DNA from: Escherichia phage MG1
DNA length: 5,490 nucleotides
Strand: one strand, 5' to 3'
Sequence record: OR702609.1
Shown here: positions 1 to 4,385 of the stretch, in pieces
Numbering within the stretch: position 1 is the stretch's first letter
Layout of the letters: the number at the start of each line of letters is the position of its first letter
Translations under genes and position numbers: made by a program
Notes under the pieces: generated by a model
Database searches by the model: none
Told to the model about the DNA's origin: nothing
Seen by the model: the letters and a program-made list of their open reading frames with translations, nothing else

Positions 1-1635
1 ATGTCTGTAGAATTAGTAAAACCACTCGTCGAAGCTGCTGGCATGTCGACACTTACACAATCCCCAAACCTCCGTATCTGGAAACAGGTAAACACTCGCG
101 TAAAATTACTTGAAGAAATTCTTGCTCACTGGACAAACGGAATCCGTCGCTGCCCTGAAACTCAAGACTTCTACATGAACCCAAATTCTCAATTGGCTAC
201 TACTATTGCCTATCGTGCCCATCAAAAAGGACACAACCCAAAACTCATTCAATACCCTGACACATTTACTCTCGACGACATTATTCGCCGTAAACCAATC
301 CCTCAAACTGCCCCTAACGAATTACGCCTCTCTGATGAAATCGGTGAGGATTACCGCCTTACAGTCATCGCCATTGCTGACGAACTGCAAGAATGTTACG
401 ACGTGCTCGAACAACTTGATATTAATAACACTATAGACCACACCCCTAAAGGTAACGCCCATTGGAGTATGCTTTATGATAAACCTGTTAACACCCATTG
501 GTCACAGCTCGTATCTAAACGACCCCTTAAAGATATCCGCGCCGATTACAACTATGCAAAGGCGAAGGGTATTAAGGATGAATGCTCAAAAATGCTTGAG
601 GAATCCACCATGAAATCAAGACGTGGCTTTACCGTTCAAAGATTGATGAATGCTATGCGCCAAGCCCACACTGATGGTTGGTATGTTGTATTCGACACTC
701 TTACTCTGGCCGATGATCGCATACAGGCTTTCTATGATAATCCCAATGCTCTTCGTGACTACTTCCGTGATATTGGTCGTATGGTGCTTGCTGCCGAGGG
801 TCGCTCTGCTAATGACTCACACGCCGACTGCTATCAGTATTTTTGTGTTCCAGAGTATGGCACACAGCACGGTCGTCTACATTTCCATGCAGTGCACCTT
901 ATGCGCACACTTCCTCTGGGTTCTCGTGACCCTAACTTCGGTAAGCTGGTACGCACTAATCGCCAAATAAATAGCTTGCAAAACACTTGGCCTTACGGCT
1001 ACTCTATGCCCATCGCAGTCCGGTACTCGCAAGACGCATTCTCGCGTTCTGGTTGGCTCTGGCCTGTCGACTCAAAGGGTGAACCCCTTAAAGCTACCTC
1101 GTATATGGCTGTCGGCTTCTACGTCGCTAAATACGTCAACAAAAAATCTGATATTGACATGGCCGCAAAAGGCCTAGGGAATAAAGAATGGAACGCATCA
1201 CTCAAGACCAAAATATCTCTCCTACCAACCAAACTATTCAGAATCCGAATGTCCCGCAACTTCGGGATGAAGATGTTATCAATGGCGCACCTGACCGCCG
1301 AAACATTAATCCAACTGACCCAACTGGGCTACGACTCGACCCCGTTCAACAACGTTTTGAAGCAGAACGCCAAGAAAGAGCTGAAATCGAGGCTGGCAAA
1401 AGCATCTGTCGCGACCGTTTTGGCGGCGCAACCTGTAACAACGAATCTGCTAAAATTTATGCGCGATTTGACCCGAACAATCGGAGCGTCCAACCTGCAG
1501 AATTTTATCGCTTCAATGACTCAGAAATTAACACTCATGGATACTTCTGATGAAACCAAAAACTACCTTGCTGCTGCAGGCATTACTACTGCTTGCTTAC
1601 GAATTAAATCGAAGTGGACTGCTGGTGGAAAGTGA
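1..1635 (+). CDS. A: Replication initiation protein A (rolling-circle HUH endonuclease), 544 aa
   Basis: Long ORF from ATG at 1 to TGA at 1633-1635. Strong similarity to phiX174 protein A from about residue 120 onward. HUH motif HFHAVH at 880-897. Paired catalytic tyrosines in [10 protein letters not shown] (Tyr codons 1120-1122 and 1132-1134). Contains the 30-nt origin at 412-441. N-terminal ~100 aa diverge from phiX174. Confidence 0.93.
412..441 (+). other. Viral (+) strand origin of rolling-circle replication; protein A nick site between G418 and A419
   Basis: Exact match to the conserved 30-nt microvirus origin CAACTTGATATTAATAACACTATAGACCAC as I recall it from phiX174/G4, located inside gene A. 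Confidence 0.85.
610..1635 (+). CDS. A*: Protein A* (in-frame internal initiation within A), 341 aa
   Basis: In-frame ATG at 610 (MKSRRGF...), at the position I recall for phiX174 A*. GAGGA at 598-602, 7 nt upstream. Predicted length 341 aa equals phiX174 A*. Expression not provable from sequence. Confidence 0.6.
977..1005 (+). promoter_or_regulatory. Candidate promoter pB (inside gene A, upstream of B)
   Basis: TTGCAA at 977-982, 17-nt spacer, TACTCT at 1000-1005 (4/6 to TATAAT). Position is about 185 nt upstream of B, roughly where phiX174 pB lies. Weak hexamers. Confidence 0.25.
1188..1550 (+). CDS. B: Internal scaffolding protein B, 120 aa
   Basis: ORF in an alternative frame wholly inside A. 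ATG at 1188 with AGGGA about 9 nt upstream. Same length as phiX174 B, with conserved C-terminus ([26 protein letters not shown]). Confidence 0.9.
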
Positions 1636-1714: not shown

Positions 1715-1892
1715 GGCTGATGCTCTCGACGAGGAAAAATGGCTTAACATGATGGGCGCTCTTCTTAAGGACTGGTTCCGCTACGAACAACATTTCGTAC
1801 ATGGCAAACGGTCTTTAGTTGACATATTAATCGAACGGGGGTTACTATCCCCCACACAAACAACCCGTAACAACAAAGGAAATACCAAATGA
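1632..1892 (+). CDS. C: Protein C (DNA packaging / stage III replication switch), 86 aa
   Basis: ORF similar to phiX174 C ([49 protein letters not shown]). No in-frame ATG near the 5' end. GTG at 1632 overlaps the A stop (GTGA) exactly where phiX174 has ATGA, and gives 86 aa as in phiX174. An alternative GTG at 1614 would give 92 aa. Confidence 0.8.
1819..1848 (+). promoter_or_regulatory. Candidate promoter pD (inside gene C, upstream of D)
   Basis: Consensus -35 TTGACA at 1819-1824, 18-nt spacer, -10 TACTAT at 1843-1848. Same hexamers and position as I recall for phiX174 pD. Confidence 0.55.
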
Positions 1893-2344
1893 ACTCCAAT
1901 GAATCTGCTGTAGCCTTTCAAACTGCAATCGCTTCTATCAAAATGATTCAAGCCTCATCCGTCCTCGACCTTACCGAAGACGACTTTGAATTTTTAACTG
2001 GTGACCGTGTCTGGATTGCTACCGACCGTTCTCGCGCTCGCCGTGCTGTGGAGGCCTGTGTTTATGGCACACTGGACTTTGTCGGGTATCCTCGCTTTCC
2101 TGCTCCTGTTGAGTTTATTTCTGCTGTTATCGCTTACTACGTTCATCCGGTCAACATCCAGACCGCTTGTCTCATCATGGAAGGAGCCGAATTTACTGAA
2201 AACATCGTCAATGGCGTTGAATCCCCAGTTAAGGCTTCCGAACTCTTCGCTTTCGTTCTCCGTGTCCGCGCTGGCTGTAAAGACGTCCTCGAAGGTGCCG
2301 AAGACAACATCCGCGCTAAACTCCGTGCACAAGGGATCATGTAA
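1889..2344 (+). CDS. D: External scaffolding protein D, 151 aa
   Basis: ATG at 1889 overlaps the C stop (ATGA); AAAGGA 8 nt upstream. Very high similarity to phiX174 D (VLDLTEDDF.FLT, WIATDRSRARR.VEACVYGTLDFVGYPRFPAPVEFI.AVIAYYVHPVNIQTACLIMEGAEFTEN). Confidence 0.95.
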   Translation: MNSNESAVAFQTAIASIKMIQASSVLDLTEDDFEFLTGDRVWIATDRSRARRAVEACVYGTLDFVGYPRFPAPVEFISAVIAYYVHPVNIQTACLIMEGAEFTENIVNGVESPVKASELFAFVLRVRAGCKDVLEGAEDNIRAKLRAQGIM

Positions 2345-2351
2345 TGGCTAA
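2064..2351 (+). CDS. E: Lysis protein E (MraY inhibitor family), 95 aa
   Basis: ORF in the +1 frame inside D. ATG at 2064 with GGAGG at 2050-2054. N-terminal hydrophobic helix MAHWTLSGILAFLLLLSLFLLLSL followed by a basic Ser/Pro-rich tail (RPLVSSWK...), matching phiX174 E architecture. The track ORF begins at an upstream GTG (2001), which I consider an over-extension. Confidence 0.8.
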   Translation: MAHWTLSGILAFLLLLSLFLLLSLTTFIRSTSRPLVSSWKEPNLLKTSSMALNPQLRLPNSSLSFSVSALAVKTSSKVPKTTSALNSVHKGSCNG

Positions 2352-2430
2352 AGGTAAATCTTATCGCCGCGGCTCTGCTGGCAACAAAAAAGGCTCCCGC
2401 CTCTGGTACGTTGGCGGCTCACAATTCTAA
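2344..2430 (+). CDS. J: DNA-binding protein J (small basic core protein), 28 aa
   Basis: Not in the ORF track (short). ATG at 2344 overlaps the D stop (TAATG); AAGGGA about 8 nt upstream. Translation MAKGKSYRRGSAGNKKGSRLWYVGGSQF is highly basic and ends with the conserved RLWYVGG.QF motif of phiX174 J. Confidence 0.88.
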   Translation: MAKGKSYRRGSAGNKKGSRLWYVGGSQF

Positions 2431-2438
2431 TCTCCTAT

Positions 2439-2463
2439 GTGGGACTTCGGCCCCACTCTATTT
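2439..2463 (+). terminator. J-F intergenic stem-loop with UUCG tetraloop (candidate TJ terminator)
   Basis: GTGGG (2439-2443) pairs with CCCAC (2452-2456). An inner C2445:G2450 pair closes a TTCG loop, after an A/C mismatch. Followed by TCTATTT. phiX174 has GGGGCTTCGGCCCC at the same place. Confidence 0.4.
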
Positions 2464-2474
2464 AAGGATACAAA

Positions 2475-3761
2475 ATGTCTAATGTTCAAACTTCTGCCTC
2501 TCGTGATGCAATTGATTTATCACATCTGGTCTTCAACACTGGCGCTATTGGTCGCCTTAAAGTCGCGTCATGGACTCCTGTTGTCGCTGGTGATTCTTTC
2601 CAGCTTGACGCTGTTGGTGCTTTACGCTTATCCCCTCTGCGTCGCGGCCTGGCTATTGACTCAACTGTTGATTACTTCACTTTCTACATTCCACACCGTC
2701 ATATCTATGGCGATGCATGGATTGAATTTATGAAAACTGGCGTTGCTGCCACTTCTCTTAACCCTGTAACTACTGCAGCCTATGTTGACGGCGCTTCTTA
2801 TCTTGGTGTTATTCCTTCTGCTGACAACAAGGTTCCTAAGTTCCTGCATCAAGGCTATCTCAATATTTATAATAATTACTTCAAAGCACCTTGGATGGCT
2901 GACCGTACTGAGGCAAACCCATCTAACTTAAATGATGATGATCGTCGTCATGGCTTCCGCTGCTGTCACTTAAAAAATATTTGGTCTGCGCCTCTTCCTC
3001 CTCAGACGGAAATTACCCGCGCTATGACTACTGGTGCTACTTCCATTGACATCATGGGTCTTCAAGCTGCTTACGCCCAACTTCACACTGACCAAGAACG
3101 TGACTACTTCATGCAACGTTACCGTGACGTAATCTCTTCGTTCGGTGGCAAAACTCACTATGACGCTGACAACCGTCCTCTTTTGCTTATGCGCTCTAAC
3201 TTCTGGGCTTCTGGCTATGACATTGACGGTACTGACCAAACTTCATTAGGTCAATTCTCTGGTCGCGTCCAACAAACTTTCCGCCACTCTGTTCCTCGCT
3301 TCTTCGTACCGGAACATGGCGTTATTATTACTCTTCAACTTGTACGCTTCCCACCTACCTGTACTGAGGAAACTCACTATCTCGTTGGCAAAGGAGCACT
3401 AAACTATACTGACCTCGCGGGTGACCCTACTCTTTACGGTAACTTACCTCCTCGCGAAATCGAAATGAAAACTCTCTTCCGTGGCGCTGCTGGCTCTACT
3501 GAAAAAATCAAAATTGCCGAGGGGCAATGGTATCGCTATCATCCTTCTTACGTTGATGGACAATATCACAACCTCCAAGGCTTCCCGTTCATCCCAAATG
3601 GTCCAACTGGCAACATGGAAAACCGTGTACTGATTGACCATAAAAAATATGACGAATGCTTCCAGTCACTTCAATTAACCCATTGGAATGCTCAAGCTAA
3701 ATACAATGTCACTGTATATCGACACATCCCGACTACTCGTGATAGCATCATGACTTCTTAA
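2475..3761 (+). CDS. F: Major capsid protein F, 428 aa
   Basis: ATG at 2475 with AAGGA about 8 nt upstream. Near-colinear with phiX174 F (MSN.QT, DLSHL, ALRLSPLRRGLAIDSTVD, QGYLNIYNNYFKAPWM, RTEANP, GFRCCHLKNIW, ERDYFMQRY, RDSIMTS). Confidence 0.97.
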   Translation: MSNVQTSASRDAIDLSHLVFNTGAIGRLKVASWTPVVAGDSFQLDAVGALRLSPLRRGLAIDSTVDYFTFYIPHRHIYGDAWIEFMKTGVAATSLNPVTTAAYVDGASYLGVIPSADNKVPKFLHQGYLNIYNNYFKAPWMADRTEANPSNLNDDDRRHGFRCCHLKNIWSAPLPPQTEITRAMTTGATSIDIMGLQAAYAQLHTDQERDYFMQRYRDVISSFGGKTHYDADNRPLLLMRSNFWASGYDIDGTDQTSLGQFSGRVQQTFRHSVPRFFVPEHGVIITLQLVRFPPTCTEETHYLVGKGALNYTDLAGDPTLYGNLPPREIEMKTLFRGAAGSTEKIKIAEGQWYRYHPSYVDGQYHNLQGFPFIPNGPTGNMENRVLIDHKKYDECFQSLQLTHWNAQAKYNVTVYRHIPTTRDSIMTS

Positions 3762-3860: not shown

Positions 3861-4385
3861 ATGTTTCAGAACTTTGTTACTAAACACAATTCTCCTCAAT
3901 TTACTACTACTATCACAAAGGCCGTCACTCCCGCCGCGTTGGCTCCTGTTATTAATACGCCAACCGCTGCGCGTGGCAATCTCTTTGTGAACCTAACTAC
4001 TACCGCCCTAACTTCTCCGGGCGGTATCTCTGCTGTTGTCGCTATTGACAACTTTTCTCGTACCGACAATCAGGTTATTTCTATTGCTGCCTCTCTTTCT
4101 ACTACTGGCAGTCTAGTACCTGTTCTTTGTCGGTTTGAATCTGCTGCTGTACCAACGGCTATTCCCGCATCTGCGGTTACTTACTATCCGTTGGACTTTA
4201 CATCATCTGCTACCGCTCTGTCCGTCAAGGACTGCGCTACTGTCTCTACTCTTTCTCGCTCTGGCAATCCTGTTTATGTAGGTATTGCCCTTATTGCGAA
4301 ATCATTTACCGCCGGCACTGTATACGGCTCTATCTCAATTAATCAGGTTGACCAAGAAATCACAACTCTGCAACCTCTCAAATAA
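3861..4385 (+). CDS. G: Major spike protein G, 174 aa
   Basis: ATG at 3861 (MFQNFVTKHNS...) aligns with the phiX174 G N-terminus (MFQTFISRHNS); AAGGA about 10 nt upstream. Conserved motifs CRFES..VPT, VKDC.TV, NPVYVG, LQPLK. The track ORF starts at an upstream TTG (3813) that I consider non-genuine. Confidence 0.9.
   Translation: MFQNFVTKHNSPQFTTTITKAVTPAALAPVINTPTAARGNLFVNLTTTALTSPGGISAVVAIDNFSRTDNQVISIAASLSTTGSLVPVLCRFESAAVPTAIPASAVTYYPLDFTSSATALSVKDCATVSTLSRSGNPVYVGIALIAKSFTAGTVYGSISINQVDQEITTLQPLK

What the first reader, a model, noticed from the sequence alone, without database searches (positions are those of the whole stretch)
2064..2351. Lysis protein E lacks Pro21 and carries His3 and Phe19
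Read directly from the sequence, E begins MAHWTLSGILAFLLLLSLFLLLSLTTFIRSTSRP. Residue 21 is Leu (CTG, 2124-2126) and there is no proline in the hydrophobic helix. From memory, phiX174 E has Pro21 there (LLLPSLLIMFIP), reported as required for lytic function, and R3H and L19F are the Epos substitutions that relieve SlyD dependence; this E has His3 and Phe19. By my recollection of phiX174, the Pro-to-Leu difference corresponds to a silent Ala codon change in the overlapping D frame. Either this lineage's E works without Pro21 or its lytic activity is altered.
Basis: partly seen in the sequence, partly recalled or inferred. Interest (0 to 1): 0.65.

Follow-up and report, generated by a model that had tools for sequence, protein, structure and literature searches.

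The report
Proline-free phage lysis protein E
This small phage, like its eight known relatives, carries a conserved version of lysis protein E that lacks the proline reported as essential in every other phiX174-like phage, so the proline requirement probably depends on neighbouring residues.

Summary
The window is a complete Bullavirinae genome, 96% identical to Escherichia phage Lilleput. Gene E (2064-2351, +1 frame inside gene D) encodes MAHWTLSGILAFLLLLSLFLLLSLTTFIRSTSRP..., with Leu21 (CTG 2124-2126), His3, Phe19 and no proline before residue 34.

It is not a sequencing error or a private mutation. The same proline-free membrane helix occurs in 8 other genomes: five Lille phages, SECphi17, a metagenome contig and Salmonella phage PJNS002. 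All 15 distinct E N-termini from phiX174-, G4- and alpha3-like loci keep LLLPSLLIMFIP.

P21L comes with S22L, L23S, I25T and M26T, all silent in D, plus L19F (D Ala to Ser).

The new helix is under purifying selection. Only 1 of 19 D-synonymous sites varies inside E10-28, against 28 of 47 upstream of E (p = 3e-5). Four of the five fixed D-silent differences between the clade and all other loci lie in this helix.

SECphi17 lyses E. coli K-12, so this E most likely still works. I infer it is still an MraY blocker, with co-substitutions replacing the Pro21 kink.

His3 and Phe19 are not special: His3 is common, and G4 has both together with Pro21.

This is a new, unannotated variant of a known protein. 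Function is untested.

The parts
2064..2351 (+). Gene E, 95 codons plus stop. It lies in the +1 frame inside gene D and runs 8 nt into gene J.
   Evidence: phmmer matches the solved E proteins 8G01_B (E = 1.1e-9) and 8G02_B (2.8e-9). The ORF is open and 91-97 aa long in all 9 clade genomes.
2050..2054 (+). GGAGG Shine-Dalgarno-like sequence, 9 nt upstream of the E start codon.
   Evidence: Read from the sequence. GAGG is kept at the same place in the relatives.
2070..2072 (+). E codon 3, CAC = His. This is the same state as the phiX174 Epos R3H.
   Evidence: His3 is also found in G4, ID2 and WA13-like loci.
2091..2150 (+). E residues 10-29, the core of the membrane helix: LAFLLLLSLFLLLSLTTFIR. 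It contains no proline.
   Evidence: Residues 10-28 are the same in all 9 clade genomes except S17N in lillemer; residue 29 is Arg in eight and Pro in PJNS002. D-silent polymorphism is 1/19 over E10-28 against 28/47 upstream of E. AlphaFold2 predicts a helix over residues 6-31, with pLDDT 95 and 86 for residues 11-20 and 21-30.
2118..2120 (+). E codon 19, TTT = Phe. Its third base is the first base of D codon 78 (TCT, Ser). This is the same nucleotide state as Epos L19F / D A79S in phiX174.
   Evidence: PMC4825663. Phe19 is also present in reference G4.
2124..2126 (+). E codon 21, CTG = Leu, in place of the CCG = Pro of all other Bullavirinae examined. The change is silent in D (GCT instead of GCC, Ala).
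   Evidence: Residue 21 is Leu in 9 of 9 clade genomes and Pro in 15 of 15 distinct non-clade N-termini.
2127..2141 (+). Linked substitutions in E codons 22-26: TTA TCG CTT ACT ACG = L S L T T, where phiX174 has S L L I M. All four changes are silent in D.
   Evidence: Four of the five fixed D-third-position differences between the clade and the 14 other loci compared in that test fall in E10-28 (4/19 against 1/123 elsewhere, p = 0.001).
2148..2150 (+). E codon 29, CGG = Arg, where other phages have Pro29. The change is silent in D (CCG instead of CCC, Pro).
   Evidence: Residue 29 is Arg in 8 clade members. PJNS002 keeps Pro29.
2166..2183 (+). E residues 35-40, LVSSWK, just after the membrane helix. 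S37, W39 and K40 are invariant across the 9 aligned E proteins.
   Evidence: Alignment A1, invariant columns S37, W39, K40 and also L44, K46, T47, M50. There is a weak Pfam PF04517 match over residues 36-64.
1889..2344 (+). Gene D (external scaffolding protein), the frame that hosts E.
   Evidence: Pfam PF02925, E = 1.6e-81. It is annotated at the same coordinates in Lilleput.
2344..2430 (+). Gene J (DNA-packaging protein, MAKGKSYRRG...). Its first 8 nt overlap the end of E.
   Evidence: Read from the sequence. The position is equivalent to J in G4, ID2 and phiX174.

Best explanation
The ORF at 2064-2351 is the working lysis gene E of a distinct Bullavirinae lineage: the SECphi17/Lille phages, a metagenome contig and Salmonella phage PJNS002. 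Its membrane helix has moved to a second, proline-free sequence state. What is shown: on the branch leading to this lineage, P21L became fixed together with S22L, L23S and I25T. L19F and M26T are also present, as they are in reference G4. R29 was added later in the E. coli subclade. Five of these changes are third-position, D-silent changes. After that burst the helix froze again. What is inferred: the protein still inserts with its N-terminus in the periplasm, binds the host MraY translocase through the retained helix face (L13, L16, S17, L20, L24, F27, I28), and blocks lipid I synthesis through the retained SSWK..L.KT segment after the helix. This would cause lysis at septation, as for phiX174 E. 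The need for Pro21 seen in phiX174 E and ID52 E would then depend on sequence context. In this lineage the hydroxyl residues S23, T25 and T26 and the bulkier F19 may supply the helix bend, flexibility or packing that the Pro21 kink gives elsewhere.
For: Homology: the protein matches the solved E proteins 8G01_B and 8G02_B (E = 1e-9). Residues 1-18 are identical to G4 E except residue 2. The gene sits in the same +1 frame and position inside D, with a GGAGG upstream. Lineage feature: the proline-free helix is in 9 of 9 clade genomes from independent sources, and the clade is monophyletic in the F tree. Pro21 is present in all 15 distinct non-clade N-termini. Only 7 of 562 Bullavirinae records in the phage collection carry this helix DNA. 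Constraint: between the window and PJNS002, D-silent differences are 1/20 in E10-29 against 22/47 upstream of E (p = 7e-4). Within the clade, polymorphic D-silent sites are 1/19 against 28/47 (p = 3e-5). The proline-containing group shows the same freeze (1/17 against 24/28). Discrete shift: 4 of the 5 fixed D-silent differences between the groups lie in E10-28 (p = 0.001). Lysis competence: SECphi17 is grown to culture collapse and plaqued on MG1655. The Lille phages were isolated on MG1655 (PMC7552041). Retained face: in residues 19-29 all unchanged positions (20, 24, 27, 28) fall within 260-360 degrees of a helical wheel, and all changed positions fall within 20-220 degrees.
Against: No experiment has been done on this E. 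P21A abolishes lysis in ID52 E (PMC11126076), and Pro21 was reported as required in phiX174 E (Witte 1997, cited), so a working proline-free E contradicts the simple reading of those results. The low divergence of the helix DNA between PJNS002 and the Lille phages could partly reflect recent recombination of a short segment and not selection. The Pfam E-family model scores below its threshold (18.8 against 25 bits). The compensation idea (Ser/Thr bending the helix) is inference only. AlphaFold2 predicts a longer and more confident regular helix (6-31) than for G4 E (6-27), which gives no sign of a kink. MraY as the target is assumed from homology.
Confidence: 0.72

Rival explanations
1. E in this lineage still lyses the cell, but through a changed binding mode or a different membrane target. 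Seven helix positions, including the kink-forming proline, were replaced. The protein might therefore no longer fit the MraY groove beside helix 9 and may act on another step of envelope synthesis or disturb the membrane directly.
For: There are six to seven substitutions in a 20-residue helix that is otherwise invariant in three genera. Fixed differences are concentrated there. The C-terminal part is diverged, with Pfam below threshold and 46-60% identity to other E proteins. Other single-gene lysis proteins hit other targets, such as MurA and MurJ (PMC12506998).
Against: The periplasmic N-terminus and the first half of the helix (residues 1-18) are the same as in G4 E. One helical face and the SSWK..L.KT segment after the helix are retained. 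The hosts (E. coli K-12, Salmonella) carry the MraY that phiX174-type E already inhibits. A gradual path exists, because G4 has F19 and T26 together with Pro21.
Confidence: 0.13
2. E is weakened or inactive in this lineage. The ORF persists only because it is locked inside the essential D gene, and release of progeny is slow or depends on something else.
For: P21A abolishes activity in ID52 E. E is not annotated in any relative. SECphi17 plaque assays were run at 25 C, which might hint at unusual lysis physiology.
Against: A decaying overlapping frame would accumulate D-silent changes. Instead the helix is frozen (1/19 against 28/47), and the frame stays open for 91-97 codons in all 9 genomes while the third frame is full of stops. 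The phages form plaques and collapse cultures. No other candidate lysis gene exists in a 5.5-kb genome with the standard A-H gene set.
Confidence: 0.1
3. Leu21 is a sequencing or assembly error, or a private mutation of this one genome.
For: None found.
Against: The identical CTG and flanking codons are found in SECphi17, five Danish isolates, PJNS002 and metagenome contig OBLN01002562.
Confidence: 0.01

Closest known systems
Lysis protein E of phage G4 and G4-like Gequatrovirus (P0002, P0003, ID8, ID11)
   Same: It is encoded in the +1 frame inside gene D, with the start at the equivalent D codon. Residues 1-18 (M-HWTLSGILAFLLLLSL) are identical apart from residue 2. His3 is shared. Reference G4 also has Phe19 and Thr26. 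Length is similar (95-96 aa), and the end overlaps J.
   Different: G4 E keeps Pro21, Ser22, Leu23, Ile25 and Pro29. The window has Leu21, Leu22, Ser23, Thr25 and Arg29. Overall identity is only 52-58%.
phiX174 lysis protein E (PDB 8G02, the MraY-E-SlyD 'YES' complex) and ID21 E (PDB 8G01)
   Same: They are homologous (E = 1e-9), with the same gene arrangement and the same single N-terminal membrane helix followed by a basic tail. The SSWK motif is conserved.
   Different: Those proteins have the Pro21 described as bending the helix that lies in the MraY groove beside helix 9 (PMC11812184, which numbers it Pro-19). The window protein has no proline in the helix. Identity to phiX174 E is 46%.
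phiX174 Epos mutants (R3H, L19F; pos4B carries both)
   Same: The window carries the same two residues, and for L19F the same nucleotide state, which gives D Ala to Ser.
   Different: Epos alleles are laboratory suppressors in a Pro21 background that raise E synthesis and bypass SlyD. Here the residues are ancestral lineage states shared with G4, and nothing is known about SlyD dependence.
Unannotated E ORFs of SECphi17, Lilleput, Lilledu, Lilleto, lillemer, Lilleen, PJNS002 and contig OBLN01002562
   Same: They have the same proline-free helix and are 94-97% identical to the window protein for the database E. coli phages (the OBLN01002562 protein differs at only a few residues) and 60% identical for PJNS002.
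   Different: The differences are minor: A2/E2, S32/P32 and a few C-terminal residues. PJNS002 keeps Pro29 and has a phiX-like tail of 91 aa.

Membership tests
Microvirus lysis protein E (Bullavirinae single-gene lysis protein, MraY inhibitor; Pfam PF04517) | Encoded in the +1 frame entirely within or across the end of scaffolding gene D | tested here: met
   E is at 2064-2351 inside D at 1889-2344. The start is at the D codon equivalent to that in phiX174, G4 and alpha3.
Microvirus lysis protein E (Bullavirinae single-gene lysis protein, MraY inhibitor; Pfam PF04517) | Detectable sequence homology to experimentally characterised E proteins | tested here: met
   phmmer matches 8G01_B at 1.1e-9 and 8G02_B at 2.8e-9. 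Annotated G4, ID8 and ID11 gpE match at E = 7e-15 to 2e-10.
Microvirus lysis protein E (Bullavirinae single-gene lysis protein, MraY inhibitor; Pfam PF04517) | Single N-terminal hydrophobic helix with the conserved core LAFLLLLSLLLPSLLIMFIP | tested here: inconclusive
   A helix is present (AlphaFold2 H6-31). Thirteen of 20 core residues are retained and 7 differ.
Microvirus lysis protein E (Bullavirinae single-gene lysis protein, MraY inhibitor; Pfam PF04517) | Pro21 in the helix, reported as required for lysis | tested here: not met
   Codon 21 is CTG (Leu) and there is no proline before residue 34. Pro21 is present in all 15 distinct non-clade N-termini examined. For this reason I file it as a variant of the family defined by homology and gene position, not as a canonical member.
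Microvirus lysis protein E (Bullavirinae single-gene lysis protein, MraY inhibitor; Pfam PF04517) | Match to Pfam PF04517 (E, C terminus) above the gathering score | tested here: not met
   The score is 18.8 bits against a cut-off of 25, E = 0.0015, over residues 36-64.
Microvirus lysis protein E (Bullavirinae single-gene lysis protein, MraY inhibitor; Pfam PF04517) | Inhibits MraY and causes host lysis | not testable with these tools
   There is only indirect support. Clade phages lyse E. coli K-12 and the helix is under purifying selection.
Epos-type (SlyD-independent) E alleles | His3 and/or Phe19 | tested here: met
   Codon 3 is CAC and codon 19 is TTT. These are the same substitutions as in pos4B.
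Epos-type (SlyD-independent) E alleles | Lysis independent of host SlyD through raised E synthesis | not testable with these tools
   There are no data for this lineage. ID52 E (Arg3, judging by its R3A mutant) is reported as SlyD-independent, so these residues do not define the phenotype across lineages.

The most novel reading that the evidence does not exclude
The Pro21 kink is not intrinsic to how E proteins block MraY. A second, proline-free solution exists in nature, reached by a coordinated block of substitutions, with G4 (F19, T26) as a possible stepping stone. In the stronger version, this E docks on MraY in a different geometry or acts on a different target, which would define a second class of Bullavirinae lysis protein hidden in unannotated ORFs of a widely used laboratory phage (SECphi17).
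Probability: 0.15. Interest if true: 0.8.

Novelty: new variant of a known kind. Interest (0 to 1): 0.55.

Why it matters
Pro21 is the best-known functional residue of the phiX174-type lysis protein. It is reported as required in phiX174 and in ID52 E, it is invariant in all other lineages examined here, and it is described as the source of the bend that lets E lie in the MraY groove.

A natural, selectively maintained E without it gives a direct test of what the proline does. Swapping residues 19-29 between SECphi17 E and G4 E, alone and in combination, would separate three roles: helix shape, membrane insertion and interaction with SlyD.

That matters for work using the E-MraY interface as a template for antibacterial peptides and peptidomimetics, and for bacterial-ghost production with E variants.

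It is also a clean example of two alternative constrained states in an overlapping gene, reached almost entirely through changes that are silent in the host frame.

On the practical side, E is missing from the annotation of all seven database relatives.

Tried and rejected
1. Direct measurement of phiX174 P21L (nt C629T). I looked for it in the supplements of the phiX174 complete-mutagenesis preprint (10.64898/2026.07.25.740675). The stored tables are truncated and sorted as text, so the row for nt 629 is not held, and a search for 'P21L' returns nothing. This was a dead end.

2. Key papers. Orta et al. 2023 (Science) and Tanaka & Clemons 2012 are not held. Statements about the helix face that contacts MraY therefore rest on secondary citations or on my memory, and I mark them as such.

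3. Foldseek of the AlphaFold2 model of E against the PDB gave no matches, because the model is one short helix plus a disordered tail. It could not be used to compare helix bend with 8G01 or 8G02.

4. Searching for further proline-free E variants. A degenerate DNA pattern allowing any non-Pro codon 21 found 0 hits in IMG/VR, 1 in JGI metagenomes (a clade member) and 0 in GTDB genomes. The pattern fixes the flanking codons, so divergent variants could be missed.

5. A protein search with E found only nine annotated or predicted Pro21 proteins and no proline-free one.

6. Sequencing error was considered and rejected.

7. An upstream in-frame GTG at 2001 (116-aa ORF) was considered as the start. 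I rejected it because the ATG at 2064 aligns with every annotated E start and has the GGAGG upstream.

Full report
**What the window is.** The 5490-nt window is a complete Bullavirinae (phiX174-like) genome, linearised at the start of gene A. Over its full length it is 96.4% identical to Escherichia phage Lilleput, 95.5-96.0% to Lilledu, lillemer, Lilleto and Lilleen, and 93.5% to SECphi17. It is about 83% identical to Salmonella phage PJNS002 and about 79-81% to G4-like phages. The E. coli relatives were isolated on E. coli K-12 MG1655 from wastewater or sewage (PMC7552041). The gene order A(B,K)-C-D(E)-J-F-G-H is standard.

**Checking the observation.**
- Translating 2064-2351 gives a 95-aa protein, MAHWTLSGILAFLLLLSLFLLLSLTTFIRSTSRPLVSSWKEPN....
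- Codon 21 is CTG at 2124-2126, codon 3 is CAC and codon 19 is TTT. The first proline is residue 34.
- The ORF lies in the +1 frame of gene D (1889-2344) and ends 8 nt into J (2344-2430). A GGAGG sits 9 nt upstream of its ATG.
- phiX174 E in the reference record reads MVRWTLWDTLAFLLLLSLLLPSLLIMFIPSTFKRP.
- The T at 2125 that makes Leu21 is the third base of D codon 79 (GCT, where phiX174 has GCC; both are Ala).
They are R3H (G575A) and L19F (G624T, which is also D A79S) (PMC4825663; PMC3324380). The window has the same D Ser / E Phe nucleotide state.

**It is a lineage feature.** I extracted the E frame from every related genome I could fetch.
- The helix LAFLLLLSLFLLLSLTTFI is present in the window, the five Lille phages and SECphi17. 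It is also in metagenome contig OBLN01002562 (about 90% identical genome-wide) and in PJNS002. The only variation is S17N in lillemer.
- All 15 distinct E N-termini from phiX174, G4-like, ID2, ID18, alpha3-like and WA13-like loci have Pro21, Ser22, Leu23, Ile25 and Pro29. These loci came from GenBank and IMG/VR.
- In the phage collection, 562 records contain this region. Only the seven clade members match the window's helix DNA at 97% or better. The next best is G4 at 91%.
- A degenerate DNA pattern allowing any non-proline codon 21 found nothing in IMG/VR or in 185,579 GTDB genomes. It found only the OBLN contig in the JGI metagenomes.
- The clade is monophyletic in a tree of the F protein. 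All outgroups have Pro21, so Leu21 is the derived state.
- His3 is not unusual: 5 of the 15 non-clade N-termini have it.
- Reference G4 has both His3 and Phe19, plus Thr26, together with Pro21. This makes G4 a plausible intermediate.

**P21L is part of a block.** Compared with the otherwise invariant sequence, the clade differs at seven positions:
- L19F. This is the E third position and the D first position, giving D Ala to Ser.
- P21L, S22L, L23S, I25T and M26T.
- P29R, in the E. coli subclade only.

Apart from L19F, each change is a D-silent third-position change that alters the second base of an E codon.

**Evidence that the new helix is functional.** The third position of each D codon is the second position of an E codon. 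Any D-silent change there therefore alters E, and the density of D-silent variation reports constraint on E.
- Between the window and PJNS002, D-silent differences are 22/47 upstream of E, 7/20 and 12/27 in the E tail, but 1/20 in E10-29 (Fisher p = 7e-4).
- Across the nine clade genomes, polymorphic D-silent sites are 28/47 upstream against 1/19 in E10-28 (p = 3e-5).
- The proline-containing phages show the same freeze: 24/28 against 1/17 (p = 1e-7). phiX174 against G4 is 0/20 against 27/42.
- Fixed D-silent differences between the two groups are 4/19 in E10-28 and 1/123 in the rest of the compared D region (p = 0.001).

Together these figures point to two alternative, strongly constrained sequence states for the helix, separated by one burst of change. 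A decaying frame would not look like this. One caveat remains: a recent exchange of this short segment between PJNS002 and the Lille lineage could also lower divergence. The family-wide freeze makes selection the simpler reading.

**Lysis competence.** SECphi17 is routinely propagated to culture collapse and plaqued on MG1655 (bioRxiv 10.1101/2020.06.21.156273). The Lille phages were isolated on the same host. No other lysis candidate is apparent in the genome.

**How it most likely works.**
- Shown: the protein is homologous to the solved E proteins 8G01_B and 8G02_B (E = 1e-9). Its residues 1-18 equal those of G4 E apart from residue 2. Residues S37, W39, K40, L44, K46, T47 and M50 after the helix are invariant in the alignment.
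- On a helical wheel, the unchanged residues of the second half of the helix (L20, L24, F27, I28) lie within 260-360 degrees. They continue the arc of L13, L16 and S17. All changed residues lie within 20-220 degrees.
- Inferred: the protein still binds MraY along the retained face and blocks it with the retained segment after the helix. That is what the YES-complex work describes for phiX174 and ID21 E (summarised in PMC12506998, and PMC11812184).
- The proline requirement is documented by P21A in ID52 E (PMC11126076) and by Witte et al. 1997 (cited there). It would then be conditional on the neighbouring residues.
- A possible compensating factor, from general knowledge of membrane helices, is that Ser and Thr side chains hydrogen-bond to the backbone carbonyls at i-3 and i-4 and bend or loosen helices. 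T25 and T26 would act on the carbonyls of residues 21-23. This is speculation.
- AlphaFold2 on the isolated protein predicts a longer and more confident regular helix for the window E than for G4 E. The window E gives a helix at 6-31 with pLDDT 86 for residues 21-30. G4 E gives a helix at 6-27 with pLDDT 65. This fits loss of a helix-breaking residue and says nothing about the bound state.

**SlyD.** His3 and Phe19 match the phiX174 Epos alleles, which raise E synthesis and bypass SlyD. They are ancestral states shared with G4. ID52 E (Arg3, judging by its R3A mutant) is reported as SlyD-independent. I therefore draw no conclusion about SlyD dependence for this lineage.

**Comparison with what is known, and novelty.**
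- By homology, gene position and architecture, this is a Bullavirinae E protein.
- It fails one feature usually treated as defining (Pro21), and it scores below the Pfam PF04517 threshold (18.8 against 25 bits).
- E is not annotated in any of the seven database relatives.
- A search of 5.8 billion proteins returned only Pro21 E proteins.
- No held paper that mentions these phages was seen to discuss their lysis gene: none has lysis in its title or abstract, and the two I opened do not mention it.
- I therefore classify it as a new variant of a known kind. The finding applies to the lineage and is not peculiar to this window.

**Rival readings.**
- A changed target or binding mode: about 0.13.
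- An attenuated or inactive E: about 0.10. The frozen helix, the open frame in nine genomes and plaque formation all argue against it.
- A sequencing error: excluded.

**What led nowhere.** These attempts are listed with their call numbers in the tried-and-rejected field:
- the truncated phiX174 mutagenesis tables;
- the two key papers that are not held;
- the empty Foldseek search.

Noticed in passing
window 2064-2351, and the equivalent positions in L001-L007: Gene E is not annotated in any of the seven GenBank relatives. The Lille records list only A, C, D, F, G and H (no A*, B, K, E or J), and SECphi17 has no annotation at all.
   Followed up: yes
window 1-1635 (A), 2475-3761 (F), 3861-4385 (G): The genome looks mosaic. 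Protein A is closer to G4 (84.5%) than to phiX174 (66%). Coat protein F is closer to phiX174 (73.6%) than to G4 (66%), and the clade groups with phiX174 in the F tree. Spike protein G is at most 48% identical to any compared phage, which fits the K-12 host range.
   Followed up: partly
L013 (IMG/VR copy of reference G4) 2154-2444; P0002: Reference G4 E already carries Phe19 and Thr26 (and His3) while keeping Pro21. Other G4-like isolates have Leu19 and Met26. This could be a stepping stone toward the proline-free helix, or a convergent change.
   Followed up: partly
L018 (IMGVR_UViG_2534682327_000003), around 3170: This IMG/VR 'viral genome' is phiX174 with the E amber mutation (MVRWTL*DTLAF). 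It looks like the commercial am3 control DNA and not an environmental phage.
   Followed up: no
P0007, P0008 (sequencing-run-derived proteins): These phiX174-type E sequences carry L19F (LSLFLPSLL) and have N-terminal extensions from an upstream start call. The Epos-type Phe19 therefore also circulates in phiX174-like sequences in public read sets.
   Followed up: no
L006 (Lilleen) 2064-2357: Lilleen has a small insertion at the D/J junction that changes the E C-terminus (…KESCKYYG, 97 aa). Its record is also about 150 nt shorter than its relatives, and its annotated F and G CDSs overlap, which suggests an assembly problem there.
   Followed up: no
window 2148-2150: Pro29, at the cytoplasmic end of the helix and invariant in all other lineages, is Arg in the E. 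coli subclade but still Pro in PJNS002. The E. coli subclade therefore has no proline in residues 1-31 (Lilledu, lillemer and Lilleto have Pro32) or 1-33 (the window and the others).
   Followed up: partly
window 2432-2474: The J-F intergenic region contains a GC-rich hairpin (GTGGGACTTCGGCCCCAC) at the position of the phiX174 J-F hairpin (GGGGCTTCGGCCCC). It is probably the conserved terminator or mRNA-stabilising stem.
   Followed up: no
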